Source of the DNA: Candidatus Zixiibacteriota bacterium
Lineage (GTDB): Bacteria; Zixibacteria; MSB-5A5; DASWLN01
Assembly: GCA_036396115.1 (NCBI GenBank)
Contig: DASWLN010000168.1
Coordinates: 3,362-67,361 of the forward strand
Direction: 5' to 3'
DNA length: 64,000 bases
Shown in pieces: positions 8,087 to 63,809 of the stretch. The translations under genes were made by a program, and so were the position numbers. Under the pieces are notes generated by a model. It was not told where the DNA came from. It did not search any database and saw nothing but the letters and a program-made list of their open reading frames with translations. Position 1 is the stretch's first letter. Each line of letters begins with the position of its first letter.

Positions 8087-8930
8087 AACAGTATTAGGTA
8101 AAGGAATTGAGGCTTTGATTCCTGGTCTTCCCGAGGATAAGTTTGAGGGAAAAGGGAATCTGATTCAACTTGAAATCAAGAAAGTAAAACCAAATCCGTA
8201 TCAGCCGCGAGGCGCCTTCGACCAAACAAAGTTGGAGGAACTGGTTGACTCTATCCGGCAGAGGGGTTTGGTTCAGCCCTTAGTGGTCAGGCGAAAAGAG
8301 GACGGGTTTGAATTGGTAGTTGGAGAGAGAAGACTTTTGGCAGCCCAGAAGGCAGGATTGAATTTCGTGCCGGCGCTCCTGTTGGATAAACTGACCAAAC
8401 AGGAAATGATGGAGATGGCTTTGGTGGAGAATATCCAAAGAGAGGATTTAAATCCAATTGACCAAGCCAAAGGATACAGCCGACTCATAACCGAATGCGG
8501 GGTTTCCCAGAAAGAGCTTTCCAAAAGAATTGGCAAGGACCGCTCCTCTGTTTCTAACATCTTGCGGCTCTTGAACTTACCTGACAAAATACAGCGATAT
8601 CTGTCAGAAGGCAAGCTTTCCGAGGGGCATGCCAGAGCCATTTTGGCGATTCCAGATAAGAAGAGCCAAATATCTTTGGCAGAAAGGATCGTAAGACAGG
8701 GTTTATCTGTGCGCAGAGCTGAAGAGCTTGTTTATAAAAGAAAAGAGGCAAGAAAGGGAACAAAAAAGTACAAGACATCAAAATATTCTGATTTGGAAGA
8801 TAGATTAAGGGAATACCTTAAAACAGCGGTTAAAATTAGTCAGAAACAAGGAAAAGGTAGAATTGAAATAGAATTTTACTCAGAAGAGGATTTAGGTCGA
8901 ATTCTTGAGTTATTCAATTTGAAGATTTGA
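8079..8930 (+). CDS. parB: chromosome partitioning protein ParB/Spo0J
   Basis: ParB box [28 protein letters not shown], an HTH and a C-terminal dimerisation domain. Overlaps the parA stop. Confidence 0.9.
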
Positions 8931-8931
8931 T

Positions 8932-9708
8932 ATGCCAAGAAGGTATGTTAATTTTATCATAGTTCCTGAAGATAAATCAGAAGGAATAAAGCTTAGATTG
9001 TCAACTCTGGCTGTGAAGTTCCTCTTGGGAATTATCCTGGTGGTAGTCGTGGTAATGGCTATTATGTCGATATTTTATGTCAAGGCATTATCTATTGCTA
9101 TGTTGAACAATGAGTTGAAAAAAGAGAATCAAAGGCTGAGAGAATATAACTCCAAGGTTGTGCAAATGGAGAAGGAGCTCGAGGACTACAGGTCATTTTT
9201 CTCTAGAGTTGCGAATTTAGCTGGCGTTGATCAAGATTTGATAGCTAAGAATGGAGAGAGGGTGGCTCAAGTGTTGGGAAATACGTTGGATTCCACAGTT
9301 GACTACTCTATCGGTCCGCAGGAGGTGGACACTCAAGTTGCAGATATTCCGAGCGGCTTGCCTTTGGGGGGATGGATTAGTAGAGATTTTAGCACCGAGC
9401 ATAAGGCTATAGATATTGCAGCAAAGGAGGGAACCGAGGTAAAAGCAGCTGCAGATGGAGTAGTCAAATTCGTTGGCTGGGACGAAACCTTTGGCAACCT
9501 GATTATTCTAAAACATAAAGGCGATATTGAGACCTATTATGGACATAACCAGAAGATTTTAGTAAAGCCCAATCAGAAAGTGAAAAAGGGAGAGACGATC
9601 TCGCTATCAGGAAACACAGGCAAAAGCACAGCCCCGCACTTACATTATGAAATTAAAAAGGATGATAAATCAGTTAATCCCTGGAACTATATGGGGAAGA
9701 AACGCTAG
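8932..9708 (+). CDS. M23 family metallopeptidase with N-terminal TM and coiled coil (EnvC/LytM-like)
   Basis: M23 motifs HKAIDIAA...GNTG.STAPHLHYEI. Confidence 0.85.
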   Translation: MPRRYVNFIIVPEDKSEGIKLRLSTLAVKFLLGIILVVVVVMAIMSIFYVKALSIAMLNNELKKENQRLREYNSKVVQMEKELEDYRSFFSRVANLAGVDQDLIAKNGERVAQVLGNTLDSTVDYSIGPQEVDTQVADIPSGLPLGGWISRDFSTEHKAIDIAAKEGTEVKAAADGVVKFVGWDETFGNLIILKHKGDIETYYGHNQKILVKPNQKVKKGETISLSGNTGKSTAPHLHYEIKKDDKSVNPWNYMGKKR

Positions 9709-9737
9709 AGGTCAAAATGCAAAAAAGGAAGGAAAAA

Positions 9738-10073
9738 ATGGAGGGAGGGTTAAATACCTTTGTGGGCAAAGGTTCAACTATCAATGGTGAGTTGGAAGTG
9801 GCGGGTGGTGTCAGGATAGACGGGACAGTTAAGGGAAAGGTGACGGCAAGCGAGACAGTTATAGTTGGAGCAGAGGGGATTATTGAAGCGGATATTGATA
9901 CTAAGATTACGGTGGTGGGTGGAAGGGTGTCCGGAGTAATTACTGCTCTGGATAAAGTGGAGCTCCAGTCTAAGTCAATGATAATCGGGGATATCACAAC
10001 TAAGAATCTGGTAGTTGAGCAGGGAGCGATTTTTCACGGAAAATGCAATATGAAAGAAGGGATGACAGAATAG
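9738..10073 (+). CDS. bactofilin family cytoskeletal protein
   Basis: DUF583-type beta-helical repeats (GELEVAGGVRIDGTVKGKV..., VVGGRVSGVI...). Size ~110 aa. Confidence 0.8.
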   Translation: MEGGLNTFVGKGSTINGELEVAGGVRIDGTVKGKVTASETVIVGAEGIIEADIDTKITVVGGRVSGVITALDKVELQSKSMIIGDITTKNLVVEQGAIFHGKCNMKEGMTE

Positions 10074-10295
10074 AGGTATAAAAGGTAGTGTTTTTGTTGA
10101 TAAGTAACGAGCCTTTGTGGAAATCAGAGTAACTATTTGATAGATCTTGTCTTAAATGAATGTTACTTAGAAGAAAAACAAAGGGTTATCCACATAGATT
10201 CTGGTAAGTCAAGGCAGATTTGATAATTACTCAATCTTTGAAAATCTTAAAATTAACTGAATACCTCAACTCGTTACATATTAAGGACTAAGTTG

Positions 10296-10330
10296 TGGGA
10301 GGGGTTGTCTTATCCTCCCTTTTGTTTTTC
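10296..10330 (+). terminator. candidate intrinsic terminator (GGGAGGGG-loop-CCTCCC followed by a T-tract)
   Basis: Hairpin plus TTTTGTTTTT seen in the sequence, ~220 nt downstream of the bactofilin gene. Confidence 0.35.
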
Positions 10331-10365
10331 AGGTGAAATCAAAACCCAGTAATAATAGGTGAATC

Positions 10366-11223
10366 GTGAGCCTGTTGGGTGCGCATATGTCAATCTCAGG
10401 TGGGGTTTTCAATTCTTTATTGGAAGGTGAACAAGTAGGGTGCAATACCGTTCAGATATTCACTAAAAGTAGCAATCAGTGGCAAGCTAAGACATTGAGC
10501 GCGAATGAGATAGATAGATTTTATAAAGAGCAAGAAAGAACTAAAATAAACCCAGTTGTCGCGCATAATTCATATCTTATAAACTTAGGGTCTCCGGACA
10601 GAGGTCTATTAGAAAAATCAAGAGAATCGATGCTAATCGAATTGGGACGTTGTGGGAGATTGTCCATCCCCTATCTGGTGATACATCCTGGCTCGCACCT
10701 GGGAGATGGTGAGAAAAAAGGAATAAAAAGGATCGCTGATTCAATCAATTGGTTGTTGGGTAAGACTGCAAAAGATGAAGTGAAGATCGGATTAGAGACA
10801 ACTGCCGGCCAGGGCTCTAATATAGGTTATCGCTTTGAGCAATTAGCTGAGATAATGGGCTTAATCGAAGACAAAAAAAGAGTGGGAATCTGTTATGATA
10901 CTTGCCATACCTTTGCGGCTGGATATGATATAAGGAACAAGGAAAGTTATGAAAAAACTTGGAAAGAGTTTGATAGAATTCTGGGGACGAAAAATCTCTT
11001 GGCTATTCATATGAATGATTCCAAAAAAGGGTTGGGTTCAAAAATAGATAGGCATGAACATATTGGCAAAGGGGAGATCGGCTTGGCAGGTTTTAAACTT
11101 ATTATGAATGACCAAAGATGGGAGAACGTCCCCAAAATTTTGGAGACGCCCAAAAAAGAGGATAAACTCAAATTAGATAAGATGAATCTGGCAACTTTGA
11201 GAAGGTTGATAGTTAAGAAATAG
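10366..11223 (+). CDS. nfo: deoxyribonuclease IV (endonuclease IV, AP endonuclease)
   Basis: LLGAHMSISGG N-terminus, a TIM-barrel Nfo metal-binding pattern (HPGSHLG, ETTAGQGS, DTCHTFAAGYD, HMNDSK) and a C-terminus KILETPK. Confidence 0.9.
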   Translation: MSLLGAHMSISGGVFNSLLEGEQVGCNTVQIFTKSSNQWQAKTLSANEIDRFYKEQERTKINPVVAHNSYLINLGSPDRGLLEKSRESMLIELGRCGRLSIPYLVIHPGSHLGDGEKKGIKRIADSINWLLGKTAKDEVKIGLETTAGQGSNIGYRFEQLAEIMGLIEDKKRVGICYDTCHTFAAGYDIRNKESYEKTWKEFDRILGTKNLLAIHMNDSKKGLGSKIDRHEHIGKGEIGLAGFKLIMNDQRWENVPKILETPKKEDKLKLDKMNLATLRRLIVKK

Positions 11224-11404
11224 TTTTGGAGTGCATCCCGCCGATGGTGGGATGCATGCATTGACACGGTCAATGCACTCCATAAATATTAGCGCGTAGG
11301 GCCGAAGTAAATCTATCGCCCGAAGAGTAGGAGACTATTGAAAAAGAATGTTTTGACGGGGCTGACCCAAAAGGATCTTTTGATTCATTTAAACGTCTCT
11401 CGGC

Positions 11405-11510
11405 TGTCATTGCGAGGAGTCCCGATATCCATCGTGACGACGTGGCAATGCTGAATTAAGTTCAGGATCGCCACGCTCCCCCCGACAAGTCGGGGTCGCT
11501 CGCGATGACA
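11405..11510. repeat. MITE-like element with TGTCATTGCGAG / CTCGC(A/G)ATGACA terminal inverted repeats
   Basis: One of at least 9 copies in the window. ~80-105 bp, GC-rich, internally palindromic. Confidence 0.75.
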
Positions 11511-11577
11511 ATGGACTTATGGGTCAACCCCACTACCCTATAAAAAATCTAATACTTAAGAACAGAAGGGATAAAAT

Positions 11578-13470
11578 ATGAAGAGAATTTGGTTTTTGCT
11601 TATCTTGGTTTTGTTTTTCTGGTGGAGAGGCTCTTATTCTATGGTTCTTTTGGATATAAAGGTGGAAGAGGGTAAGAAGGGGAAGGTGGAGAGTTTCAGC
11701 TTGATTGACCAGGGCACAGTCGAACTCTATGATTCACTTGAAACCTCAGCATTCTTGGGTAACTTCACCCTCTCAGCCCAGGCCGCAACTTTCGACAGCG
11801 TTAACTTGACGTTAGATCTGTCCCTTTTCACTTTGGGTCCAGATATTCAGAGTTACTTCAAAGAATATTTGCTCAAAACTGGAGAAGAAACTGTGCTGCC
11901 AGAGCTTAGGGTAAAGGATGATATCCTCTTCAGGGTAAAGATCACTCCTCATATAAAGGCTGAAGAGACAAATAGATGCAATTTGAATACCAAAGATGCG
12001 GAGACCTGGTATTCCGACCCCAGCACGCATTTCTATTATCACTACATTCTCGAAACTCTGCCGGACTACCACTGGAACACAAACAAAGGGGTGTTAGAGG
12101 ATTTTTATCATAGGATTTGGGATAGGTTCGGTTTTTGGGATCCTGACAAGATCGATTATTTTTTAGTCCCCTGCGAGCTTAAGGAGATATACTGGGATAA
12201 AAGGTATGGTCAGGGGCTCGATCCCACCAAAAGGAAAATCTACGTGATATATAATCAGAGCACGCGCAGCGTGGATGGGCCGGGAGTGGGGATGTTCTTG
12301 TTCTATAGATACTGGGGGTATGCGCCAGCTATGGTGGTGGAGGGAGCTACGGGAAATATCGGGCTGGCTCATTATCAAGCCCAAAAACTAAAAAAAAGAG
12401 GTATGCTTTTTAGCTTGAAAGAACTGGAAATCAGTAAAGATTACAAGTCCAAACCCAAGGAAATCGCTTTCTATCAAGCCAGCTCTTTTATAAAATATTT
12501 AGTTGATACTTACGGTTTGGGGAGGTTTAAGAAATTTTACGAAGAGGTTACGGATTTGACTTTTGAACAAGCCCTATTTAAGGTTTATGGGAAAAAGTTG
12601 CCTCAACTGGAAAAGGAATGGTTAGCATACCTTGATACTTTCAAAGAGTATGAGGCGAATTTGGTTTACTTCGTCACGCTTAAAACGCAATACCGACACT
12701 ACGCAGAGGCAATTGACCTTTTAAATGACCTCTTGGAGATGTCAGAAAACAAGGCTGGTTATTTGAGCGACCTGGCTGGCATCCATTATACCTTAGGAGA
12801 TTACGAGAAAGCAAAAGAGTACTACTTGAAGTTGTTGGATTTGAAGCCGGAAAACCCGCTTTTCATCTGTCTTTTGGGGAACACTTATAATCTTTTGGGA
12901 GATTATGGCCAGGCGGAAAGCTTGTATGTGAAAGCAATCGGGCTGGATACTAGTTACATAACCCCGCTTTTGAAGTTAGGCGAACTATATCTGGCAGAAG
13001 GGGAATACCAGAAGGGAAAGGAGCTTTTCGACAAGGGATTATCCAAGGGACCGGGCACAGAGGAAGCGGCTTTGCTTTTCTTAGGGTCAGCAGAGTGTAA
13101 GAAGAATTTGGGCCAGCCGGAAGAGGCACAGGAAGATTTGGAAAAAGGGCTTTACCAGTGCCAGGTTATGCTGAATAGTTTTCCTGAAAGGCCAGCTCCT
13201 TATTATTACAGTGGCAAGGTTTATCTGGCTATGGGATTTCCTGATACCGCAGCATATTACTTGGAAACAGCGGCCACACTGGAGGATATTCCTTATAGAC
13301 GGGGTAAAATTCTTTTGGACTTGGCTGGGGCTTACTCTGCAGTTGGGGATTTGGAATTAGCACAGAAGGCTTACCAGGAGATATTAGACATAAACTGTGG
13401 AGCAAGGGAAAAAGAGCAGGCGGAGAAGCTCTTGGCTCAACCCAAAGAAAGAAAGGAGGGTAGTAAATGA
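11578..13470 (+). CDS. secreted TPR-repeat protein (unknown N-domain plus C-terminal TPRs)
   Basis: Signal-peptide-like N-terminus and multiple TPR-like repeats (YTLGDYEKAKEYYLKLLDLKPEN...). Confidence 0.65.
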   Translation: MKRIWFLLILVLFFWWRGSYSMVLLDIKVEEGKKGKVESFSLIDQGTVELYDSLETSAFLGNFTLSAQAATFDSVNLTLDLSLFTLGPDIQSYFKEYLLKTGEETVLPELRVKDDILFRVKITPHIKAEETNRCNLNTKDAETWYSDPSTHFYYHYILETLPDYHWNTNKGVLEDFYHRIWDRFGFWDPDKIDYFLVPCELKEIYWDKRYGQGLDPTKRKIYVIYNQSTRSVDGPGVGMFLFYRYWGYAPAMVVEGATGNIGLAHYQAQKLKKRGMLFSLKELEISKDYKSKPKEIAFYQASSFIKYLVDTYGLGRFKKFYEEVTDLTFEQALFKVYGKKLPQLEKEWLAYLDTFKEYEANLVYFVTLKTQYRHYAEAIDLLNDLLEMSENKAGYLSDLAGIHYTLGDYEKAKEYYLKLLDLKPENPLFICLLGNTYNLLGDYGQAESLYVKAIGLDTSYITPLLKLGELYLAEGEYQKGKELFDKGLSKGPGTEEAALLFLGSAECKKNLGQPEEAQEDLEKGLYQCQVMLNSFPERPAPYYYSGKVYLAMGFPDTAAYYLETAATLEDIPYRRGKILLDLAGAYSAVGDLELAQKAYQEILDINCGAREKEQAEKLLAQPKERKEGSK

Positions 13471-14054
13471 GGGTGTTAGCAATTAGTGGTAGTCCGGTGA
13501 ACGGCGGGAACGTGGAGGTATTGTTGGAAGAGATAAGCATGGGAGCAGAAAGCAGGGGAGCGAAATTCAGCTTAATTCACTTAAATGATTTAGAGATTCT
13601 ACCCTGTCAGGCTTGTGGCAAAAGCCTGGAACCAAACTTTTGCTTCTATGCGGATGGGATGGGATTAGTTTATGAAAAGTTATTGGCTTGCGATATTTTA
13701 GTCTTGGGCTCGCCCATCTATTTTGATTCTCTTTCTGCCCAGACTAAGCTTTTCATCGACCGCTGCAACTGTATAAGACCGATAGTTGAAACCCCTAAAG
13801 GAGATTTCATTTTCAAAAATAGATTCAAGAAACAAAGAAAGGGAGTAGCAGTTCTGGTGGGTGGAAAAAGGGGAAGGTTCGAAGGGGCTTTGACTGTCTT
13901 GAGAGGTTTTTTCAAGTGGGGGAATTTCAAGTTGGTGGATAGTCTGATTTATAAACATGATGATTGGGAGGTGGGAGGGGTAAAAAACAATAAAGAAGTG
14001 ATGAAGAGGGCTTTTGAGTTGGGGGAGGGGTTGGCACAAGGCAAGGCAAAGTAA
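13467..14054 (+). CDS. NADPH-dependent FMN reductase / iron-sulfur flavoprotein family protein
   Basis: MRVLAISGSP..GN flavodoxin-like N-terminus. CQACGK plus additional Cys residues. Overlaps the upstream gene by 4 nt. Confidence 0.65.
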   Translation: MRVLAISGSPVNGGNVEVLLEEISMGAESRGAKFSLIHLNDLEILPCQACGKSLEPNFCFYADGMGLVYEKLLACDILVLGSPIYFDSLSAQTKLFIDRCNCIRPIVETPKGDFIFKNRFKKQRKGVAVLVGGKRGRFEGALTVLRGFFKWGNFKLVDSLIYKHDDWEVGGVKNNKEVMKRAFELGEGLAQGKAK

Positions 14055-14079
14055 AAGATTTTAATTTTTCTATGTTTAA

Positions 14080-14400
14080 CTGTCAGGAGTAGCTCCTGAC
14101 AGAACAATAAAACCTATAACATTTATTGAAGGCGACATTCGCGAATGTCGCCTTCAAATATGTAGGGGCGTATTGCAATACGCCCCTATGCGCTCTACAT
14201 TTCTTGTTCGCATTTTGTTCATGCGGGAATTGGATTTCCCGCATGGCTTCAGGAAATAATCTCCCCTAACCCCTCTTTTTCAAAGAGGGGAACAGAATAA
14301 TCCCTCCCCCTTTAGCAAAGGGGGACTAATGGTTCGACATGCTCACCATCCTGAGCGAAGTCGAAGGAGGGGGATTTGAAAAAGACAAACACTTGCGTGC
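14080..14400. repeat. intergenic cluster of GC-rich palindromic repeats (several families)
   Basis: TGTCAGGAGTAGCTCCTGACAG, GTAGGGGCGTATTGCAATACGCCCCTA, CCCCTCTTTTTCAAAGAGGGG and GGTTCGACATGCTCACCATCCTGAGCGAAGTCGAAGGA all recur elsewhere (36290, 24960, 28430/21790, 21730/34880). Confidence 0.7.
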
Positions 14401-14470
14401 AGTAAAAAGATATTAACCTATTGGTCTAATTCCCGTATGAATGATAAGTCTAAGCGGGCTTCATAAACCG

Positions 14471-15268
14471 CTACATTTTTTGTTCGCACTTTTTCTTTAA
14501 ATTCTTTACCAATTCCAAATTATTTTTTTGCCTTTCCCTTAGTTTTTCATCCAAGGGATAGCTTAATATCTTTTCACACTCTTTTTGGCATTCCTCCATT
14601 TTTCCTAAATTGTAGAGGGCATTTGCCATTTTTGTCCTGCACTCGATTAGATTATAGTAATTTTTTGGCTGGCTTTTTTCTATTTTCACAAGAAGTTGGG
14701 AGTAGGAGGCATAAGCCCCTTCCCAATCACCACTTTGATATTGGGCGGAAGCCAAAGGCCATAAGAAAAGCTTCCCTTGAGGATACTTCTCACACATATC
14801 CTTGGAATGCATTACGGCTAAAGGATACCAGCCTTCATTGATATAGACCCAAATCAAAGCATTAGTTGCCGCTTCTTTGGAAAAGATGCTTTTTGTGGCG
14901 GCAATTTTCAAAAACTCTATCCCCTCTTTTCTTTTATCCCCCAAAAATGGAAGCCACTGAAAATTCTTGGTGACGATGCTACTCCAATAATAGTAGCTAC
15001 CCAAGCCCAAATAGGCGTCAGATAGCGTAGAATCCAAATCTATCGCTTTCTTCAAATTAGATTTAGCCCTTAAGCCATCTTTCAAGGCAGACCACAACTT
15101 GCCCCTTTTCCCCTCATAAACTGCTAAGTATCCATACGAGTTTCCTAAGAAAAGAGGGGCCCAGGCATCTTTTGGGTTGGCTTTGATTTTCTCTTTGCTA
15201 AGGTCAATACTCTTTTGGATATTTTGATGAAACCTCTTTTCCTCAAAATAATCTTCTTCATCCATCAT
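14471..15268 (-). CDS. hypothetical TPR-like protein (tandem paralog of 15474..16490)
   Basis: Shares WLPFLGDKRKEGIEFLK / WWLPFFGDKRKLGIEQTK and overall helical-repeat character with the neighbouring gene. Confidence 0.5.
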   Translation of the reverse strand: MMDEEDYFEEKRFHQNIQKSIDLSKEKIKANPKDAWAPLFLGNSYGYLAVYEGKRGKLWSALKDGLRAKSNLKKAIDLDSTLSDAYLGLGSYYYWSSIVTKNFQWLPFLGDKRKEGIEFLKIAATKSIFSKEAATNALIWVYINEGWYPLAVMHSKDMCEKYPQGKLFLWPLASAQYQSGDWEGAYASYSQLLVKIEKSQPKNYYNLIECRTKMANALYNLGKMEECQKECEKILSYPLDEKLRERQKNNLELVKNLKKKCEQKM

Positions 15269-15473
15269 CTTAACCTGCAGAACTGCAGCTAAGAAGAAAT
15301 ACCCTTCCGGCTCTTGAGAATAATCTTTTATAATTTGGCTAAAGCAACTTTCCGCTTGAAGAAAATTGTCACCAAGCGTGGCATCAATTCCCTGTAAAAT
15401 GGATTCCCTGGAGACTTGGGCAAAAGAGTAATTGATACCCAGAAGGAAAATTAAACAAAAAAGAAAGAAGGTC

Positions 15474-16490
15474 TTAAGGTTGATTATGCTGCTGAATGTT
15501 TTTCTTAATATCTTGGGCTTTTTGAATGAACTCTTTGATATGGTCGTCGGATTTCCCTTGGGTTTGATATTTCAAAATCTGGTCAATCTGCTCTAAGCAG
15601 TTAGCTTTGTCCCCCATTACCTGATAAAGATAGGCAATCCAATATTTTGTTTCCACCATACCACGAGGAGTGGAATACTTGGAAGCCCCAAAGGTCTTAA
15701 GCAAAGCCTGGTAGGTCTCTTGGGCATCTTTATACATCCCCTTTTTGATTTGAGTCTGACCCAAGAACCACAAAAGGAAAGGGTCATCCGGCTTTATCTT
15801 TTTTAAGTCCGGGCCAAGTGCTAATGCAGAATCATACTGTTGATTCTCCACATAGATTCTCAAAAGCCCATATTTCGCTTCATCTCGGGTGAACTTGCCC
15901 TTTTGGATAGCCAATTTGGTCTGCTCAATACCCAACTTTCGCTTATCCCCAAAAAAGGGAAGCCACCACAGCATTTTGGATTTGATGCTACGATAAAAAT
16001 TGTAAGCTCCCAAGCCAAAATAGATATCATAATAGGCGGAATCGGTCTCTACCCCCTTTTCCAAAATCTTTTTGGCTTTGCCCCCATCCCAAAAAGCTCC
16101 CCACCAATCTCCATTAAAAGACCGATAGATGCCGCGGTATCCGTAAGAGCCACCCAGATAAAGCAGGTCCTCGGCCGTGTAATTCCCCCTCTTCATCCTC
16201 TCCTCACCCTTTTGTATAGCTAAATTAATATATTTCTCAAACTCCCCTCGATAGGATTGGTTTCGGTAGTCATCAATGATAGATACAAAAGAAACGGCAA
16301 CATACATATATCCGCCGGCATCATCCGGATTAAGTTGTATAAGTTTCTTGAACTCTGCTATCCCCTCATCGAATTTGTCCTGATGTATATAGTCTATTCC
16401 CGCAAAGATTATGCTGTCCCTGTCCTCGGCATATAGGGTAAAAGGGTAGAGAAATAGAAATAAAAGAATGGCTAATATTTTTGATTTCAT
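15474..16490 (-). CDS. hypothetical secreted TPR-like protein (tandem paralog)
   Basis: Signal peptide MKSKILAILLFLFLYPFTLYA. Paralog of 14471..15268. Confidence 0.5.
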   Translation of the reverse strand: MKSKILAILLFLFLYPFTLYAEDRDSIIFAGIDYIHQDKFDEGIAEFKKLIQLNPDDAGGYMYVAVSFVSIIDDYRNQSYRGEFEKYINLAIQKGEERMKRGNYTAEDLLYLGGSYGYRGIYRSFNGDWWGAFWDGGKAKKILEKGVETDSAYYDIYFGLGAYNFYRSIKSKMLWWLPFFGDKRKLGIEQTKLAIQKGKFTRDEAKYGLLRIYVENQQYDSALALGPDLKKIKPDDPFLLWFLGQTQIKKGMYKDAQETYQALLKTFGASKYSTPRGMVETKYWIAYLYQVMGDKANCLEQIDQILKYQTQGKSDDHIKEFIQKAQDIKKNIQQHNQP

Positions 16491-16494
16491 ATCT

Positions 16495-17472
16495 TTAACC
16501 AGTAAATTTTCGTCTCAAGCTTTCCCCTGTTTTCTCCAAAGGATGAGAAGAGACCTGTTTTTTTATTTTTACGTAATTTTTCATTCCAGCTTTATATTCC
16601 CTAATCCATTTTCTGGCGAAAGCCCCATTTTTTATTTCGGCTAAAACCTTTCTCATATTTTGTTTAACTTTATCATCTATTACCCTTTTCCCTGACAAAT
16701 AGGAGCCGTATTCTGCGGTCTTGCTTATGCGATTATACATTCCACTGATACCATAAGATTTAATCAAATTCACAATAAAATCCAATTGATGAACACATTC
16801 AAGATAGGCATTTCCCTCGGGTAGTCCAGCCTGGACCAAGACCTCAAATCCTTTCTTCAAAAGTTCAGTTAATCCTCCACAAAGAACGGCTTGCTCACCA
16901 AATATATCCCCAATGGCTTCATCTCTGAAAGTTGTCCATAAGACGCCTGCTTTGGTTAAGCCAATTCCTTTGGCATAAGCCAAAACAAGCTTTTTGGCTT
17001 GTCCGGTGTAATCCTGATAAACCCCGACAAAACCTGTCACCCCTGTTTTGTTTTTATAATTTTCCCTTAAGATTTTTCCAGGGGAATGGGGGGCGACCAA
17101 TATTACATCTACATTTTTGGGAGGATGAATAAGTTTGAAGTGAATGCTAAATCCGTGGGCAAATAATAGAGTTTTGCCGAGGGGCAGGTATTTTTGTATT
17201 TTCGAAAAAACTTCTGGATGAGTATGGTCGGGAATTAAAAAAGAGATGATGTCACTTTCTTGAACCGCCTTTTCAATAGACAAAACTTCAAAACCATCTT
17301 TTTGGGCTAATTTGTTGTTTTTGCTTTTTGCCCTTAAGCCGATAATTACTTTACATCCACTATCCTTCAAATTGGCTGCCTGTGCCCTTCCCTGACTCCC
17401 ATAGCCCAAGATGCCAATGGTTTTATCTTTCAGATATTTTAAATTTGCGTTTTTGTCTTTGTAGATTTTCAA
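16495..17472 (-). CDS. ilvC: ketol-acid reductoisomerase
   Basis: N-terminal Rossmann GYGSQGRAQAANLKDSG and full-length class I KARI similarity. Confidence 0.9.
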   Translation of the reverse strand: MKIYKDKNANLKYLKDKTIGILGYGSQGRAQAANLKDSGCKVIIGLRAKSKNNKLAQKDGFEVLSIEKAVQESDIISFLIPDHTHPEVFSKIQKYLPLGKTLLFAHGFSIHFKLIHPPKNVDVILVAPHSPGKILRENYKNKTGVTGFVGVYQDYTGQAKKLVLAYAKGIGLTKAGVLWTTFRDEAIGDIFGEQAVLCGGLTELLKKGFEVLVQAGLPEGNAYLECVHQLDFIVNLIKSYGISGMYNRISKTAEYGSYLSGKRVIDDKVKQNMRKVLAEIKNGAFARKWIREYKAGMKNYVKIKKQVSSHPLEKTGESLRRKFTG

Positions 17473-17546
17473 ATACTTTCTCCATCCAGCTTTCTTCTTA
17501 TCGCTATCACTTAATCCTCTTTTAATCTCACCCGAAGACCGTTTGC

Positions 17547-17580
17547 TGTCATTGCGAGTCCGTAGGACAAAGCAATCTTG
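17547..17580. repeat. partial copy of the TGTCATTGCGAG MITE (one terminus only)
   Basis: TGTCATTGCGAGTCCGTAGGACAAAGCAATC. Other half absent. Confidence 0.5.
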
Positions 17581-17583
17581 ATG

Positions 17584-17871
17584 TTATAAATTGTCATATA
17601 AGTCTTCCCATTCCGGATTCATCTTGGTTATCATTGCGACCTTCTTTGTTCTCGAACCACCTTTAATCTGCTTTTCTCTGGTAATAGCATACTTGATATC
17701 GTTGGAAACCTCATAATATACTAACTTTGTAATATTATACTTCTTTGTGAAACCTTCAATCAACTTCTTTTTATGCTCATAAATCCTTTTTTTGAGATCG
17801 TTAGTTACCCCCGTATAAATTACTCTATTGTTCTGATTTGCTATTATGTAAACATAATATTCTTTTGTCAT
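17584..17871 (-). CDS. GIY-YIG nuclease family protein (UPF0213-like)
   Basis: YYVYIIANQNNRVIYTGVTNDLKKRIYEH = GIY-YIG motif. ~95 aa. Confidence 0.8.
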   Translation of the reverse strand: MTKEYYVYIIANQNNRVIYTGVTNDLKKRIYEHKKKLIEGFTKKYNITKLVYYEVSNDIKYAITREKQIKGGSRTKKVAMITKMNPEWEDLYDNL

Positions 17872-17929
17872 ATTCCATAGAGATTGCTTCGTTGTTGAAG
17901 CCGCCTAAAAACGCCCTGCTTCATCATTA

Positions 17930-18009
17930 TGTCATTGCGAGCGACCGCAGGGAGCGTGGTCCCGCCAACGGCGGGACTTCGTGATCGGTATGGACTCCTC
18001 GCAATGACA
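17930..18009. repeat. TGTCATTGCGAG MITE copy
   Basis: TIRs TGTCATTGCGAGCG...CTCCTCGCAATGACA. Confidence 0.75.
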
Positions 18010-18097
18010 GATTGAGAGGTAGTCGCCTTTAGCTTCGTAGATCAGGTGCCCTAAAGTACCTGACACTCTTCCCTACTTTTTTTAAATCCTCTCTTCA

Positions 18098-19486
18098 CTA
18101 ACCATCATCTTCCCCCTTATCTAATCCTCTTCTCTTCCTTTCCCACCACTCCATCCTCTTTTTAATTTCCTTCTCAAAACCAAACTCAGAAGGGGAATAA
18201 TATTTTCTGTTCTTAAGATTCTCTGGAAGATAGTCTTGATTTACGAAGTGGTCGGGGAAGCTATGGGGATATTTGTAATCTTTTCCATAACCGAGCTTTT
18301 TCATCAAGTCAGTTGGCGCATTTCTTATGTGCAAAGGAACTGGCAGGGCTTGGTGTTTTTGAATGTCCTCCTGCACAAGGCCAAATGCCCTATAAATGGC
18401 ATTGCTTTTGGGTGCAGTTGCTAAATACACAACTGCCTGGGCTAAAGCCAATTCCCCTTCAGGTGTTCCCAAAAAATGGTAAGCCTCTTTTGCCGCAATA
18501 GTTATCTGTAATGCCTGCGGGTCAGCATTGCCGATATCCTCTGAAGCGAAACGGACCAATCTGCGAGCGATATATAAAGGGTCCTCTCCGCCTGCTAACA
18601 TCCTTCCCAGCCAATAGAGCGAAGCATCAACGTCCGAGCCCCTTAAGCTCTTATGCAAAGCGGAGATTATATTGTAATGCTCCTCCCCGGCTTTATCATA
18701 AAGCAAAATCTTTTTCTGCATCACCTCTTGAGCGATTTCTAAAGTTATTTTTCTGGTTTGGTCTTTTTTATCCGGCTTGGTGGTCAGCACCGCAAATTCC
18801 AAAGCAGAAAGTGCCACCCGCGCATCACCATTTGAGGTTTGGACAATATATTCCAAAGCATCTGTGGAGAGTTTCACCTTGAAATTGCCCAACCCCCTTT
18901 GGTTATCTTCTAATGCCCTCTTCGAAATTAGCTCAACCTGCTCTAGTGTTAAAGAATTCAGGGTATAAACCTTACAGCGGGACAAGAGGGGAGAGATGAC
19001 TTCAAATGATGGATTTTCAGTTGTAGCGCCAATCAAGGTGATATTTCCCTTTTCAACATGCGGCAAAAACGCATCCTGTTGGGCTTTATTGAACCTGTGA
19101 ATCTCATCCACAAAGAGGATAGTTTTTTTACCGTAGAAATTCCTTTGTTTTGTGGCTTCATTCATCACGTCTTTTATTTCCTTTATGCCGGAAGTCACTG
19201 CGGAGAAGGGAATGAAATGAGCATCGGCTGTTTTGGCGATAACATGGGCTAAGGTTGTTTTTCCGCTTCCCGGTGGTCCCCAGAGGATAATGGATTGTAT
19301 CTTATCTTCTAAGATCGCCCTTCTTAAGGGAGAGTCTTTGCCCAGGATATGTTCCTGACCAACCAACTCATCCAAATTTTGTGGCCTCATCCTGTCAGCC
19401 AAAGGCCCCTTTGGTATTTTGGCTTTGAGTTTTTCTTCTTCAAAAAGGTCAGATTTTTCCTTATTCATATTGATCAAAATACTCAC
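18098..19486 (-). CDS. rarA: replication-associated recombination protein A (AAA+ ATPase RarA/MgsA)
   Basis: Walker A GPPGSGKTTLAHVIA and Walker B ILFVDEIHRFNKAQQD. MgsA C-terminal domain. Confidence 0.9.
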   Translation of the reverse strand: MSILINMNKEKSDLFEEEKLKAKIPKGPLADRMRPQNLDELVGQEHILGKDSPLRRAILEDKIQSIILWGPPGSGKTTLAHVIAKTADAHFIPFSAVTSGIKEIKDVMNEATKQRNFYGKKTILFVDEIHRFNKAQQDAFLPHVEKGNITLIGATTENPSFEVISPLLSRCKVYTLNSLTLEQVELISKRALEDNQRGLGNFKVKLSTDALEYIVQTSNGDARVALSALEFAVLTTKPDKKDQTRKITLEIAQEVMQKKILLYDKAGEEHYNIISALHKSLRGSDVDASLYWLGRMLAGGEDPLYIARRLVRFASEDIGNADPQALQITIAAKEAYHFLGTPEGELALAQAVVYLATAPKSNAIYRAFGLVQEDIQKHQALPVPLHIRNAPTDLMKKLGYGKDYKYPHSFPDHFVNQDYLPENLKNRKYYSPSEFGFEKEIKKRMEWWERKRRGLDKGEDDG

Positions 19487-19529
19487 TTTGGAGAGTATTT
19501 ACAAGATAAAAATTCAACCTACTACCATA

Positions 19530-19700
19530 ACCAACACCCTAGGGTTTCTGTAGGGGTTCGCCTGCCCGGCCAGGGATTTGCACAGCATCTTGACGACATC
19601 GAGTCCACCGGTCGCACCAGAGAACCTAGCCCCCTGTTGTCCCCCTTATCAGGGGGATTGTGTCGCACCCTAAAGGACATACTCTTGTCATTCTGACTCC
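19530..19700. repeat. intergenic repeat block (GGATTTGCACAGCATCTTGACGACATC family plus CCCCTTATCAGGGG hairpins)
   Basis: Near-identical segments at 36190-36300 and 37425-37460. Confidence 0.6.
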
Positions 19701-19870
19701 GCCTTGGCGGGGGAAGAATCTAATGGTTTCGATAAGTTAGAAAATCGAGATTCTTCGCCCCGATAAATCGGGACTCAGAATGACATTATGACATGGCTTC
19801 AGGGGCACAGGAAGCGTTCCTCCCCTGATAAGGGGAGGTTAGGAGGGGTTTATGCGACCCAAAGAGCCTT

Positions 19871-19950
19871 TGTCATTGCGAGCGCTAGCGAAGCAATCTG
19901 AAGTAATCTCGGGATTGCTTCGTCGTCCATATGGACTCCTCGCAATGACA
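19871..19950. repeat. TGTCATTGCGAG MITE copy
   Basis: TIRs TGTCATTGCGAGCGCTAGCGAAGCAATC...GGACTCCTCGCAATGACA. Confidence 0.75.
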
Positions 19951-20003
19951 GATTGTTAAGCCAGCAATTCAATTGCCGATAATTTTTGTAAAGGGAGGTA
20001 AAT

Positions 20004-20543
20004 ATGGAGGAAAAATTCTATTATACAAGACAGTTTGTTAACTCGCAATTAATTGCCGCAATTCTATTTTTAGTAACGGCAATCTTGTGGAACGTTGCGT
20101 ATTCTTTGGAAGGTTGGTCAGTTTGGTGGAGAATATTTGGATTGTTATATACTCTTCTCTGTTTACACTATCTTACGATATCAATCATTATCAAAAATAA
20201 GCCCTCGGTTATTATAACCGATGAAAAGATAGTTGCCAGATCGCCATTTTTTCTCAAACATAAAATCAGTTTTGAGCAGATTATTCCGACCGCCATTATT
20301 GGTGAAAAAATTAAGCTGAAATACAAGAAGCCAAACAATAAGGAAGGTTCTTTTTCCATTGCCCACCTTCGTAAGATTGATAACTGCGAAAGACTGGTTG
20401 ATATCCTCAAGCAGCGCAAAAATTTGTATAGGAAAGTAGGGACAGGTCGCGACCTGTTCCTACAACTAAATCAACGAAACTATTACCGAATCTGCCACAG
20501 GCAGGGCTTTTTTGGTAAGACGCAAGGAGCTGCCTTGTTTTGA
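20004..20543 (+). CDS. hypothetical small membrane protein (paralog of 5935..6438) with a repeat-derived C-terminal tail
   Basis: Paralog alignment ends at ...LVDILKQRKNL. The last ~30 codons read through a REP palindrome at 20436-20463. Confidence 0.5.
   Translation: MEEKFYYTRQFVNSQLIAAILFLVTAILWNVAYSLEGWSVWWRIFGLLYTLLCLHYLTISIIIKNKPSVIITDEKIVARSPFFLKHKISFEQIIPTAIIGEKIKLKYKKPNNKEGSFSIAHLRKIDNCERLVDILKQRKNLYRKVGTGRDLFLQLNQRNYYRICHRQGFFGKTQGAALF
20436..20463. repeat. REP palindrome GTAGGGACAGGTCGCGACCTGTTCCTAC inside the 3' end of the ORF at 20004
   Basis: Same sequence as 25034 and 41731. Confidence 0.75.
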
Positions 20544-21584: not shown

Positions 21585-21649
21585 CAGAAATGCAAACTAT
21601 AGCAAACGGATTAAATGTTGTTACATATTAGAGCAATATGCAATCTATC

Positions 21650-21915: not shown

Positions 21916-21945
21916 ATTCATTGAACGTAAATTAATGCGTTTGTA

Positions 21946-22620: not shown

Positions 22621-22685
22621 TTCCCCTCTTTTCCCATTCGTTAGTTTTATCGGAAGTTATGTTCAAAAAATTAACAACTGGAGAT

Positions 22686-24594: not shown

Positions 24595-24690
24595 TGTCAT
24601 TGCGAGGAGTCCCGAGAGCTTTCGGGACGACGAAGTCCCGCCTTTCGCGGGACTTCGCTCCACACGACAGAATCAGGACTCGCAATGACA
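24595..24690. repeat. TGTCATTGCGAG MITE copy
   Basis: TGTCATTGCGAGGAGTCCCGAG...GGACTCGCAATGACA. Confidence 0.75.
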
Positions 24691-31581: not shown

Positions 31582-31682
31582 TGTCATTGCGAGGAGCCCC
31601 GATGGCAATCGGGACGACGAAGCAATCTTGAAATTAAAACCGAGATTGCTTCGCTTCCCCTACAGGGTCGCTCGCAATGACA
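31582..31682. repeat. TGTCATTGCGAG MITE copy
   Basis: TGTCATTGCGAGGAGCCCCGATGG...GGGTCGCTCGCAATGACA. Confidence 0.75.
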
Positions 31683-32559: not shown

Positions 32560-32700
32560 TCCGACCGCTACAATAAAGGAGATTGCTTCGTCGTCCTTCG
32601 ACAAAAGCTTCGGGACTCCTCGCAATGACAGTATATGGTATTGTCATTGCGAGCGTAGCGAAGCAATCTATGCAGTTGCCGCGATATTCATCGGGACGGT
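32560..32700. repeat. two abutting TGTCATTGCGAG MITE termini (tail of one copy and head of the next)
   Basis: ...GGACTCCTCGCAATGACAGTATATGGTATTGTCATTGCGAGCGTAGCGAAGCAATC... Confidence 0.65.
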
Positions 32701-37475: not shown

Positions 37476-37569
37476 TGTCATTGCGAGGATCCCGCCACAA
37501 GCGGGAGACGAAGCAATCCCTTTTTCGAAATCGAGACTGCTTCGTTCCCTACGAGGACTCGCAATGACA
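37476..37569. repeat. TGTCATTGCGAG MITE copy
   Basis: TGTCATTGCGAGGATCCCGCC...GAGGACTCGCAATGACA. Confidence 0.75.
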
Positions 37570-50170: not shown

Positions 50171-50336
50171 TCTCTTTTTAAGGCACTACTCGGCAGACAA
50201 AACAGGGATTGCTTCGCTAAAGCTCACAATGACAGCTGAATACTGCAACTTAGTACGCCACCAAAGTTTTAGCGAGTGAAGGGAAAAGGGACCTTACCCG
50301 ATGGGTGGGGTACACTTGTTATCATGGGAGAAAAAC

Positions 50337-63653: not shown

Positions 63654-63809
63654 TGTCATCGCGAGTGACCAGGGGGAGCGTGGCGATCTCGATTTCATAA
63701 TCCATGATGTTATAAGAGATTGCCACGTCGTCCGCCGCAGGCCCTCGGCTTCCCTCGGCTTCGCCGAGAGGCGAGCGCCGAGAGGCGAGCGAGACTCCTC
63801 GCAATGACA
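63654..63809. repeat. TGTCATTGCGAG MITE copy with nested CCTCGGCTTCGCCGAGAGGCGAGCG repeat
   Basis: TGTCATCGCGAGTGACC...CCTCGGCTTCCCTCGGCTTCGCCGAGAGGCGAGCG...GACTCCTCGCAATGACA. Confidence 0.7.

What the first reader, a model, noticed from the sequence alone, without database searches (positions are those of the whole stretch)
11405..11510. Abundant MITE-like family with TGTCATTGCGAG terminal inverted repeats (at least 9 copies in 64 kb)
Copies at 11405, 17547 (half), 17930, 19871, 24595, 31582, 32560 (two abutting ends), 37476, ~50200 (fragment) and 63654 share the ends TGTCATTGCGAG(G/C)...(C)CTCGCAATGACA. Their GC-rich interiors are themselves partly palindromic (CGGGACGACGAAGTCCCG-type). All are intergenic, usually within 100 bp of a gene end. 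This density of roughly one copy per 7 kb in an AT-rich genome is notable. The elements could act as terminators or mRNA stabilisers, or mark recombination hot spots.
Basis: seen in the sequence. Interest (0 to 1): 0.55.

Follow-up and report, generated by a model that had tools for sequence, protein, structure and literature searches.

The report
Hairpin repeats tied to Ssn nuclease
The repeats are real: they are pairs of small DNA hairpins of the known "CGTC/TGTC-tagged REP" kind, and the same window carries the small GIY-YIG (Ssn-type) single-strand DNA nuclease gene that such hairpins accompany, a partnership first described in 2025 and seen here in a divergent form that the published search pattern misses.

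Summary
TGTCATTGCGAG (up to 1 mismatch) occurs 18 times in 64 kb against 0.23 expected, making 7 complete units and 4 single ends, all intergenic. They are not classical MITEs: there is no target-site duplication and no transposase. Each "terminal repeat" is the outer half of a separate hairpin arm, (T/C)GTC-AT-NNN-GAG...CGA(A)-N'N'N'-AT-CTC, and NNN and N'N'N' co-vary within an arm. A unit is two such arms with their tags facing outwards. The "half copy" at 17547 is the 3' arm of a 95-aa GIY-YIG gene (17584-17871, minus strand). That protein is 50% identical to Neisseria SsnA and keeps all three residues shown to be essential for cleavage. All 84 homologous loci examined, from many phyla, have at least one such arm within 500 bp, and 79% have arms on both sides. 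The system therefore matches two published descriptions: CGTC-tagged REPs (Di Nocera 2013) and Ssn nucleases with their hairpin motifs (Chenal 2025). Ssn binds the hairpin in single-stranded DNA only and cuts a few nucleotides outside the tag. Two things go beyond those papers: an expanded hairpin form that the published SRM pattern misses entirely (0 of 84 loci), and comparative evidence of rearrangements at unit edges. How the repeats multiply remains open.

The parts
11405..11510 (.). Tags-out hairpin doublet (the finding's own copy), made of two different arms. Left arm: ATTGC...GCAAT. Right arm: ATCGC...GCGAT.
   Evidence: Folds at -31 kcal/mol, z -5.8. The right arm forms the basal AT..AT stem. 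Lies inside a 341-bp segment (11205-11544) that the close relative L087 lacks.
17547..17583 (+). 3' arm of the ssn unit, with its head at 17547 (TGTCATTGCGAG-TCCGTAGGA-CAAAGCAATCTT).
   Evidence: basal stem formed. Homology with relative L087 starts exactly at base 17547.
17584..17871 (-). ssn gene: 95-aa single-domain GIY-YIG nuclease of the Ssn family (GIY-YIG_unchar_3 type).
   Evidence: Pfam PF01541, E 3.4e-16. 50% identical to the N. gonorrhoeae SsnA orthologue, E 3e-32, with Y8/Y19/E66 aligned to Y6/Y17/E64. Model pLDDT 82; best structural matches are UPF0213, Slx1 and UvrC-N. It is the only copy in the window.
17872..17929 (-). 5' leader of ssn. It holds an inner block (CGAAGCAATCT, 8 nt before the ATG) but has no tag of its own; the neighbouring doublet abuts it.
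17930..18009 (.). Tags-out doublet with a non-canonical inner block (GTGGTCCCGCC...GGCGGGACTTCG central hairpin).
   Evidence: In relative L087 the interior is replaced by a different ~70-bp module.
19871..19950 (.). Tags-out doublet; both arms are canonical (ATTGC/GCAAT).
   Evidence: (z -7.2).
24595..24690 (.). Tags-out doublet with a non-canonical inner block (GAAGTCCCGCC).
   Evidence: (z -7.7). The L087 orthologue carries the paired change TGTCATTGCGgG / CcCGCAATGACA, and synteny ends about 8 bp beyond 24690.
31582..31682 (.). Tags-out doublet; both arms are canonical, each with its own inner GC hairpin.
   Evidence: (z -8.0).
32578..32630 (-). Single arm with its head at 32630.
   Evidence: basal stem formed.
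32642..32669 (+). Single minimal arm (TGTCATTGCGAGCGTAGCGAAGCAATCT), 11 nt from the previous head.
37476..37569 (.). Tags-out doublet. The left arm is canonical; the right arm's inner block has one mismatch (GCAGT).
   Evidence: (z -8.1).
50203..50234 (-). Single arm with its head at 50234 (TGTCATTGTGAG; a G-T against the inner GCAAT).
63654..63809 (.). Long tags-out doublet (156 bp) made of two different arms. The left arm is ATCGC/GCGAT. The right arm has an ATTGC head and a long GC-rich insert.

Best explanation
The repeats are Ssn-related hairpin motifs, that is, members of the CGTC/TGTC-tagged REP superfamily. The window also holds their cognate ssn gene.

Anatomy. Each arm is a single-strand hairpin made of an unpaired tag (T/C)GTC, a basal stem AT-NNN paired with N'N'N'-AT, and a C immediately after the stem. 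Between the stem halves lies a variable insert, which is often a second GC-rich hairpin. Most copies are doublets of two arms in inverted orientation with the tags outside. The ssn gene sits between two such arms, where the ORF-less doublets have only a short spacer.

Mechanism. This is inferred from the characterised 50%-identical homologue, not shown here. When the DNA is single-stranded (incoming transforming DNA, replication, repair or recombination intermediates), the 95-aa Ssn protein binds the hairpin in one orientation and cuts that strand a few nucleotides outside the tag. It does not act on duplex DNA or RNA.

Expected consequence (inferred). The repeats mark places where single-stranded DNA is cut. 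This modulates recombination or transformation around them and makes them rearrangement-prone.

Open point. How the repeats multiply is not established.
For: Shown here:
- The motif is 78-fold over chance in the window.
- The ssn ORF is a confident GIY-YIG domain. It is 50% identical to the gonococcal SsnA orthologue, which itself sits among 12 NTS copies in 1.5 kb. The three residues whose mutation abolishes cleavage are conserved.
- Of 84 homologous loci from many phyla, 47 have both 12-mer ends correctly oriented within 150 bp and 63 have at least one.
- With the arm definition (tag plus own complementary inner block), 84 of 84 loci have an arm on at least one side and 66 of 84 on both, against 2 of 168 shuffled flanks.
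- Covariation within arms: 121 of 173 variant arms carry their own matching inner triplet. The permutation mean was 23.3 and the maximum 38. The contingency table is almost purely diagonal for TCT, CCT, CGC, GCT, ACT, CCC, TCC and TAC.
- In units whose two ends differ, the inner block follows its own end.
- 10 of 18 window arms fold with the basal AT..AT stem.

From the literature:
- PMC3733652: CGTC tags 'changed to TGTC', stems beginning with complementary AT, and tags-outside (HH) dimers predominant.
- PMC11893778: Ssn is ssDNA-specific. The C after the palindrome is critical for binding, the three nucleotides before it are critical for cleavage, and the cut lies upstream of the tag. Cognate pairs have co-varying specificity.
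Against: - The published SRM search pattern finds no match in the window, or near any of the 84 loci. Membership on the DNA side therefore rests on shared architecture, not on the published criterion.
- The arms have a 5-bp basal stem and a large insert, not the 8-9-bp stem and 4-5-nt loop that define the four CGTC families.
- 8 of 18 window arms lack a canonical inner block. Two doublets use a different central hairpin and may not be substrates.
- As whole doublets, the predicted lowest-energy fold pairs the two ends with each other rather than within arms.
- Expression signals of ssn are weak: a -10 box at the start codon in 9 of 63 loci and an SD-like motif in 12 of 63.
- dN/dS against the closest relative is 0.54, based on only 21 differences.
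- No biochemistry exists for this orthologue.
Confidence: 0.85

Rival explanations
1. The arm-ssn-arm unit (about 365-390 bp) is itself a selfish mobile element. The ORF-less doublets are its non-autonomous derivatives, copied by Ssn acting in trans. This would be the GIY-YIG counterpart of REPIN/RAYT or IS200/IS605, so the repeats exist because they replicate, not because they serve the host. This rival concerns why the repeats exist; it does not dispute that they are Ssn motifs.
For: - The ORF occupies the position of the doublets' spacer, and the stop codon often overlaps the inner block.
- The protein is 65-72% identical, and the ends are identical 12-mers, across very distant phyla. That suggests horizontal spread.
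- Units cluster 8-fold over expectation.
- Single arms, mixed doublets and module swapping show turnover.
- A 341-bp segment containing a unit is present in the window and absent in the relative.
- The authors of PMC11893778 note that the architecture is 'identical' to that of insertion sequences.
Against: - No clean filled-versus-empty site of exactly one unit was found.
- There is no target-site duplication.
- On any one strand only one arm of a tags-out doublet is in the cleavable orientation, so IS608-style excision of a single strand is not directly available.
- The ssn gene is syntenic and about 90% identical between close relatives, so it has been vertically inherited on this timescale. 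It also sits at the same uvrB-uvrA site in two related genomes.
- It is essentially absent from phages and rare in viral contigs.
Confidence: 0.35
2. Classical MITEs: deletion derivatives of an insertion sequence, mobilised by a DDE-type transposase that recognises the 12-bp terminal inverted repeats.
For: Size of 80-156 bp, inverted ends, intergenic location and multiple copies.
Against: - No target-site duplication of 2-8 bp above chance in 121 units.
- The only gene consistently framed by these ends is a GIY-YIG nuclease.
- Covariation shows that the ends belong to within-arm hairpins.
- Single arms occur on their own.
Confidence: 0.03
3. The units act at the RNA level as transcription terminators or as 3'-end mRNA stabilisers, like some E. 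coli REPs. The link to ssn would then be incidental.
For: Strong predicted hairpins. Many copies lie just downstream of genes. REPs in other bacteria stabilise mRNA (discussion in PMC3733652 and PMC12306157).
Against: - No terminator-like site overlaps a unit and there is no T-tract.
- Copies also lie between divergent genes (19871, 24595).
- The conserved unpaired tag and the orientation-specific C after the stem match the requirements of a DNA-binding nuclease that does not bind RNA.
- The association with ssn is far above background.
Confidence: 0.1
4. The GIY-YIG gene is a free-standing homing endonuclease gene that has invaded the spacer of a pre-existing, independently spreading palindromic repeat.
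For: GIY-YIG is a classic homing-endonuclease fold. The ORF sits precisely in the spacer of the doublet.
Against: - The characterised homologue does not cut duplex DNA at all, which homing requires.
- The protein has no DNA-binding extension.
- The window has one ssn copy against about 11 ORF-less sites, with no partial ORFs in other units.
Confidence: 0.05

Closest known systems
Ssn nucleases and their Ssn-related motifs (SRM/NTS); prototype N. meningitidis SsnA with NTS (dRS3) repeats. Chenal et al., Nat Commun 2025, PMC11893778.
   Same: - Single-domain GIY-YIG protein of 94-95 aa, 50% identical, with catalytic Y, Y and E conserved.
- The gene is flanked by hairpin repeats that also occur in many copies elsewhere in the genome.
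- The hairpin has an unpaired HGTC tag, a stem that starts with AT, and a C right after the stem.
- The stem sequence co-varies with the lineage.
   Different: - The arms here have a 5-bp basal stem, a conserved GAG / CGA(A) internal loop and a 5-35-nt variable insert. NTS has a continuous stem of about 9 bp and a 4-nt loop.
- The published SRM pattern matches none of them (0 in the window, 0 of 84 loci).
- The host is a Zixibacteria MAG, and relatives are mostly from uncultivated phyla rather than Pseudomonadota.
- The arms nearest the gene face tags-out, whereas the nearest NTS copies at the gonococcal gene face tags-in.
- Activity and biological role are untested here.
CGTC-tagged REPs, families CGTC-1 to CGTC-4. 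Di Nocera, De Gregorio and Rocco, BMC Genomics 2013, PMC3733652.
   Same: Terminal CGTC tag, 'changed to TGTC' in many repeats. Stems begin with complementary AT. Short unpaired tail. Predominantly tags-outside (HH) dimers with spacers of 20-100 bp. Both homo- and heterodimers occur. Location is intergenic.
   Different: - The family definitions require stems of 8-9 bp and loops of 4-5 nt with a tail of about CCA. Here the stem is 5 bp with a large structured insert and the tail is CTC.
- Those repeats were reported from 5 phyla and were said to lack a dedicated enzyme.
REP / REPIN with RAYT (GTAG-tagged REPs and their HUH tyrosine transposase-like genes).
   Same: Short tagged hairpins, inverted doublets, a single vertically inherited enzyme gene flanked by the repeats, and many ORF-less copies.
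   Different: The enzyme fold is different (GIY-YIG, not HUH/Y1) and so is the tag (GTC, not GTAG). Separate GTAG-type palindromes also occur in this window (24958-24990, 25035-25062).
IS200/IS605 insertion sequences (for example IS608).
   Same: A small enzyme recognises subterminal hairpins in single-stranded DNA and cuts at a short distance from them. There is no target-site duplication.
   Different: In IS608 both hairpins are read on the same strand and the HUH enzyme also rejoins DNA. Here the arms are inverted, and GIY-YIG enzymes are hydrolytic with no known strand-transfer activity.
Bacterial MITEs (for example Correia/NEMIS, RUP, ERIC, Nezha).
   Same: Size, inverted ends, intergenic abundance and strong folding.
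   Different: MITEs have target-site duplications and derive from transposase-encoding insertion sequences. Neither holds here.

Membership tests
Ssn nuclease family (cd10448, GIY-YIG_unchar_3) | Single-domain GIY-YIG protein under 150 aa (prototype 94 aa) | tested here: met
   95 aa. Pfam GIY-YIG covers residues 5-76, E 3.4e-16. No other domain. The model has a GIY-YIG fold.
Ssn nuclease family (cd10448, GIY-YIG_unchar_3) | Homology to Neisseria SsnA (the paper's criterion: E < 1e-10 with about 75% coverage) | tested here: met
   tblastn to N. gonorrhoeae gives E 8e-22 at 99% coverage. BLASTP to the 94-aa ORF embedded among NTS copies gives 50% identity over 86 aa, E 3e-32. CDD assignment itself could not be run.
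Ssn nuclease family (cd10448, GIY-YIG_unchar_3) | Catalytic residues Y6, Y17 and E64 (mutation abolishes cleavage) | tested here: met
   Y8, Y19 and E66 align to them and are invariant in 27 homologues.
Ssn nuclease family (cd10448, GIY-YIG_unchar_3) | Site-specific cleavage of single-stranded DNA only (not dsDNA, not RNA), a few nucleotides upstream of the motif | not testable with these tools
   Needs purified protein and oligonucleotides. Inferred from the homologue.
Ssn-related motif (SRM) as published | Match to HGTCWYN(0-2)YYVSBRHN(0-5)WNVSBRGN(0-2)RNCYNB | tested here: not met
   0 matches in the window (0.12 expected). Positive controls work: 7 matches in the Neisseria locus and 5 in the Rhizobium locus. 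0 of 84 loci of this clade match.
Ssn-related motif (SRM), functional features | Oriented hairpin: GTC immediately before the stem, a stem beginning with AT, and a C immediately after the stem | tested here: met
   Position logo over 121 units. Arm sequences. 10 of 18 window arms fold this way. Triplet covariation.
Ssn-related motif (SRM), functional features | Repeats flank the ssn gene on both sides and are multi-copy elsewhere in the genome | tested here: met
   Window: arms at 17547 and at 17930-18009 around the gene, plus 9 other sites. 66 of 84 loci have arms on both sides. Whole-genome counts could not be made.
CGTC-tagged REP superfamily (Di Nocera 2013) | Unpaired terminal tag CGTC (TGTC or CCTC allowed) | tested here: met
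   First base T in 97, C in 14 and A in 6 of 121 units; GTC is nearly invariant.
CGTC-tagged REP superfamily (Di Nocera 2013) | Stem begins with complementary AT residues | tested here: met
   AT-NNN paired with N'N'N'-AT in 383 of 470 TGC-type arms and 121 of 173 variant arms.
CGTC-tagged REP superfamily (Di Nocera 2013) | Stem 8-9 bp, loop 4-5 nt, 3-nt tail (about CCA), as in families CGTC-1 to CGTC-4 | tested here: not met
   Basal stem of 5 bp, then the GAG/CGA(A) internal loop and a 5-35-nt insert; the tail is CTC. This does not fit any of the four defined families.
CGTC-tagged REP superfamily (Di Nocera 2013) | Predominantly HH dimers (tags outside) | tested here: met
   7 tags-out doublets against 4 single arms in the window. 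Definition taken.
MITE (miniature inverted-repeat transposable element) | Target-site duplication flanking the element | tested here: not met
   For 2-8 bp, observed counts equal expected counts in 121 units.
MITE (miniature inverted-repeat transposable element) | A parent insertion sequence with the same ends that encodes a transposase | tested here: not met
   The gene framed by the ends is a GIY-YIG nuclease in 84 of 84 loci examined.
REP/RAYT (REPIN) system | GTAG tag and a flanked HUH/Y1 (RAYT) gene | tested here: not met
   The tag is (T/C)GTC and the enzyme is GIY-YIG.

The most novel reading that the evidence does not exclude
The Ssn nuclease is the long-missing 'dedicated enzyme' that generates and spreads the whole CGTC/TGTC-tagged REP superfamily. 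On this reading the arm-ssn-arm unit of about 365-390 bp is one of the smallest autonomous mobile elements known, and the ORF-less tags-out doublets are its non-autonomous progeny.

One conceivable route is as follows. Ssn cuts a few nucleotides outside each tag, on opposite strands. That would leave each broken end carrying a full single-stranded copy of the doublet. Fill-in synthesis would then duplicate the doublet. This would fit three observations: the 8-fold clustering of units, spacers between neighbours that are never shorter than 5 nt, and the absence of short target-site duplications.
Probability: 0.25. Interest if true: 0.8.

Novelty: new member of a known kind. Interest (0 to 1): 0.38.

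Why it matters
The finding places an abundant repeat of a Zixibacteria genome in a system that was only explained in 2025: small GIY-YIG nucleases that cut single-stranded DNA at their own genomic hairpin repeats.

Three points go beyond the published descriptions:
1. A large clade of Ssn genes, spread over Chloroflexota, Cyanobacteria, Planctomycetota, Nitrospirota, Omnitrophota, CPR and others, uses an expanded hairpin that the published SRM pattern does not detect in any of 84 loci. Published association figures (71% and 42%) and repeat counts are therefore likely underestimates for such lineages.
2. The triplet covariation within arms gives a ready-made table of candidate enzyme/site specificities, which is relevant to the proposed use of Ssn enzymes as ssDNA tools.
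3. Comparison with a close relative shows indels, module replacement and synteny breaks exactly at unit edges. This supports a role in genome dynamics outside Neisseria.

The open question of how these repeats multiply becomes testable with this compact unit.

Tried and rejected
- Rfam gave nothing at gathering thresholds over the whole window. A permissive scan of 17400-20050 gave only a chance snoRNA hit. There are no tRNAs.
- A full-text search for the 11-mer found only unrelated primers.
- Searches for GIY-YIG with MITE, REPIN or palindromic repeats, and for COG2827, found no bacterial link. The 2024 MITE survey PMC11602168 does not mention it. The link was found only by searching GIY-YIG together with CGTC.
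- I first thought the two arms of a unit pair with each other along their whole length. Own-arm fit (0.286) was no better than cross-unit fit (0.223, sd 0.148), so I dropped that.
- My first covariation table allowed AT[CG] and so could also match the opposite end. I redid it strictly with ATC[TC].
- The leaderless-mRNA idea (a -10 box 6-7 nt before the start codon) holds in only 9 of 63 loci, so I do not claim it.
- Phage carriage is not supported: one weak hit among 50,697 phage records and 34 of about 2.9 million viral contigs.
- The terminator role is not supported.
- I found no clean filled-versus-empty site of exactly one unit. The only presence/absence difference is a 341-bp segment.
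- The supplements of PMC11893778 are not held, so I could not check whether this variant or these phyla appear in its data tables.

Full report
**Observation.** The 12-mer TGTCATTGCGAG, allowing one mismatch, occurs 18 times on the two strands of the 64-kb window. Dinucleotide-preserving shuffles give 0.23. The hits pair into seven complete units: 11405-11510, 17930-18009, 19871-19950, 24595-24690, 31582-31682, 37476-37569 and 63654-63809. There are also four single ends, at 17547, 32619-32630, 32642-32653 and 50223-50234. All lie between long ORFs. The window is about 42% G+C. It has no tRNA and no Rfam match at gathering thresholds.

**The decisive lead.** The 'half copy' at 17547 lies directly after the stop codon of a 95-aa ORF (17584-17871, minus strand). 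That ORF is a confident GIY-YIG nuclease domain (Pfam E 3.4e-16). Read on the gene's strand, CGAAGCAATCT lies 8 nt before the ATG, and AGATTGCTTTG...CTCGCAATGACA follows the stop codon. The ORF-less units have only a short hairpin loop at the place the ORF occupies here.

The identical protein is on record from a Zixibacteria MAG. The family has thousands of members that are 64-72% identical across very different phyla.

I collected four contexts with the look-up of encoding contigs and 80 loci from named species genomes. Of these 84 genes, 47 have both 12-mers correctly oriented within 150 bp, and 63 have at least one. In many loci those are the only copies of the motif in about 12 kb. The typical full unit is 365-390 bp: (T)GTCATTGCGAG, variable segment, CGAAGCAATCT(C), ORF, T(G)AGATTGCTTCG, variable segment, CTCGCAATGAC(A). 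The stop codon often overlaps the inner block.

**Anatomy.**
- Edges are sharp. Across 121 units, conservation falls to background at the first base outside the 12-mer.
- There is no target-site duplication of 2-8 bp above chance.
- The two arms of a unit are not generally complementary beyond the conserved blocks.
- Each arm is instead self-contained. Where the outer block changes (ATTGC to ATTCT, ATCCT, ATACT, ATCGC, ATGCT, ATTCC, ATCCC or ATTAC), the inner block of the same arm changes to the complement.

I tested this without selecting for complementarity. Over 700 distinct arms, every arm was searched for every candidate inner triplet, and the contingency table is almost purely diagonal. 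121 of 173 non-majority arms carry their own matching block, against a permutation mean of 23.3 and a maximum of 38. In 64 units whose two ends differ, the inner block follows its own end (45 and 45) and not the other end (7 and 2).

The finding's own copy illustrates this. Its left arm is ATTGC...GCAAT and its right arm is ATCGC...GCGAT.

The unit is therefore an inverted doublet of hairpin arms of the form (T/C)GTC-[AT NNN]-GAG-insert-CGA(A)-[N'N'N' AT]-CTC. Ten of the 18 arms in the window fold with this basal stem. The arms of 17930-18009 and 24595-24690 use a different inner block, GAAGTCCCGCC. Folded as whole doublets, the lowest-energy structure is a cloverleaf closed by the two 12-mers, with z-scores of -4.3 to -8.1. 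The two alternative foldings cannot be told apart by energy alone. The covariation favours the within-arm stem.

**What it is.** The literature settles this.

Di Nocera et al. 2013 (PMC3733652) defined the superfamily of CGTC-tagged REPs:
[quoted passage not shown] - Dimers with the tags outside (HH) predominate.
- The elements 'apparently lack a dedicated transposase'.
- Neisseria dRS3 and Rickettsia RPE-4 and RPE-6 belong to the superfamily.

Chenal et al. 2025 (PMC11893778) showed the following:
- A 94-aa single-domain GIY-YIG protein of N. meningitidis, SsnA, binds the dRS3-containing hairpin NTS (CGTCATTCCCGCGMAVGCGGGAATCYRG) only as single-stranded DNA and cuts a few nucleotides upstream.
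- Y6A, Y17A and E64A abolish cleavage.
- The C after the palindrome is critical for binding, and the three bases before it are critical for cleavage.
- Homologues (cd10448) are flanked by their own 'Ssn-related motifs' (SRM) in many bacteria and cut their own motif.
- In Neisseria the system limits natural transformation.

**Membership tests.**
- Protein: met. A tblastn hit in N. gonorrhoeae is a 94-aa ORF with Y6 and Y17, embedded among 12 NTS copies in 1.5 kb. The window protein is 50% identical to it over 86 residues (E 3e-32), and Y8, Y19 and E66 align to Y6, Y17 and E64. These residues are invariant in 27 homologues.
- Fold: met. The predicted structure (pLDDT 82) matches only GIY-YIG folds: UPF0213 BH0048, Slx1 and the N-terminal domain of UvrC.
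- DNA, functional features: met. The GTC tag, the stem that starts with AT, the C after the stem, the tags-out dimers and the flanking of the gene are all present.
- DNA, published criteria: not met. The published SRM pattern finds 0 matches in the window, while it finds 7 in the Neisseria locus and 5 in a Rhizobium locus. It finds none within 500 bp of any of the 84 loci. The arm definition derived here finds 84 of 84 on at least one side and 66 of 84 on both, against 2 of 168 shuffled flanks. The arms also fail the stem and loop sizes that define families CGTC-1 to CGTC-4.

I therefore file the element as a member of the Ssn/SRM kind with a divergent, expanded hairpin. It is not a member of any defined CGTC family and not a MITE.

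**How it most likely works.**
- Shown here: the anatomy, the gene-repeat association and the covariation.
- Inferred from the homologue: Ssn binds an arm when the DNA is single-stranded and cuts that strand just outside the tag. On a tags-out doublet, each strand therefore carries one cleavable arm.
- Inferred consequence: cutting of single-stranded recombination, replication or transformation intermediates at these sites.

Comparison with a close relative fits a role in genome dynamics. L087 is syntenic with window 8113-24661 at 88-95% DNA identity.
1. The finding's copy lies in a 341-bp segment that the relative lacks. In the relative, nfo and the next gene overlap.
2. Homology begins exactly at base 17547, the tag of the ssn unit. 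Outside it the relatives carry an 865-bp methyltransferase gene that the window lacks.
3. Two orthologous doublets differ by replacement of an approximately 70-bp module.
4. The orthologue of 24595-24690 has a paired change in both ends, and synteny stops about 8 bp beyond it.

The ssn gene itself is about 90% identical and syntenic, so it has been vertically inherited on this timescale. Its dN/dS is 0.54, from only 21 differences.

**Rivals.**
- A selfish arm-ssn-arm element with ORF-less progeny remains possible. It is the most interesting reading, and the evidence is mixed (see the rival entries).
- The classical MITE model is rejected on target-site duplications and on the nature of the enzyme.
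- A terminator role is unsupported.
- Homing into duplex DNA conflicts with the enzyme's ssDNA specificity.

**Further observations.**
- Units cluster: 104 neighbour junctions within 60 nt against about 12.5 expected. The spacer is never shorter than 5 nt and has a mode of 7-8.
- Other lineages use other end types around their ssn genes: TGTCATTCTGAG in a Planktothrix plasmid and CGTCATCCCAGGG...CCCTGGGATC in Rhizobium.
- The family is essentially absent from phages and rare in viral contigs.
- A profile search found 7312 representative clusters at E up to 1e-10.

**Verdict.** The finding is real and now well explained. It belongs to a kind known since 2013 for the repeats and since 2025 for the enzyme. 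The added value is a divergent hairpin form missed by the published pattern, a wider phyletic range, and comparative evidence at unit edges.

Noticed in passing
window 24958-24990 and 25035-25062: Two perfect GC-rich palindromes that begin with GTAG (TGTAGGGGCGAGGTGACCTCGCCCCTACA and GTAGGGACAGGTCGCGACCTGTCCCTAC). They look like GTAG-tagged REPs, the other REP superfamily, co-resident with the TGTC-tagged one. No RAYT gene was looked for.
   Followed up: no
window 11205-11544: A 341-bp segment absent from the close relative L087. It contains the finding's unit and another long palindrome (GGAGTGCAT...ATGCACTCC). It is bounded by an imperfect direct repeat of about 16 bp (GATAGTTAAGAAATAG / AATACTTAAGAACAG) and changes the C-terminus and stop codon of nfo.
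   Followed up: partly
window 17473-17546; L087 10351-11215; L089 541-1317: Relatives carry a 258-aa methyltransferase gene between ilvC and the ssn unit. The window has an unrelated 74 bp there. The difference ends exactly at the tag of the ssn 3' arm.
   Followed up: partly
L087 about 2120-2190 and about 9860-9940: The same module of about 70 bp (CCCTAAACCGTTCTGGTTCAGGGCGAGCGACTACTTC.CTATCGCTCAGCACAGGCTCCGGGAGCG) sits inside two different doublets of the relative and is absent from the orthologous doublets of the window. The inserts within arms are therefore exchanged or inserted independently.
   Followed up: partly
L085 (Planktothrix agardhii plasmid p1, NZ_LR882964.1, gene 18847-19131): An ssn homologue (64% identical) with TGTCATTCTGAG-type repeats lies between an MmeI-type restriction-modification gene and the DISARM helicase gene drmA, that is, inside a defence-gene neighbourhood.
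   Followed up: no
L001 10001-10288 and L003 10001-10288: In two related genomes the ssn unit sits between uvrB and uvrA, with uvrC nearby. The 2013 REP paper noted CGTC and GTAG REPs inside uvrA and uvrB genes of other species.
   Followed up: no
window 24585-24956 (+), 37420-37695 (+), 63475-63804 (-): ORFs of 91-123 aa that start in or run through repeat units and have no Pfam match. Many database homologues of Ssn are also 120-170 aa long with N-terminal extensions. The repeats evidently seed spurious or extended gene calls.
   Followed up: partly
window 24685-24713 (+): The last six bases of a unit (ATGACA) serve as a -35-like hexamer, followed 17 nt later by TATTTT in the flank. The tags could create outward-facing hybrid promoters, as some insertion sequences do. 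This is a consensus match only.
   Followed up: no
all loci; window 32619-32653: Neighbouring units are 8-fold more frequent than independent placement predicts. The spacer between a tag and the next tag is never 0-4 nt (minimum 5, mode 7-8; 11 nt in the window).
   Followed up: partly
L124 (N. gonorrhoeae NZ_CP119140.1, 1881660-1883153): This record is in the plasmid collection but is 2.17 Mb long, so it is evidently a chromosome. The ssnA orthologue there carries no annotation in the distributed gene table.
   Followed up: no
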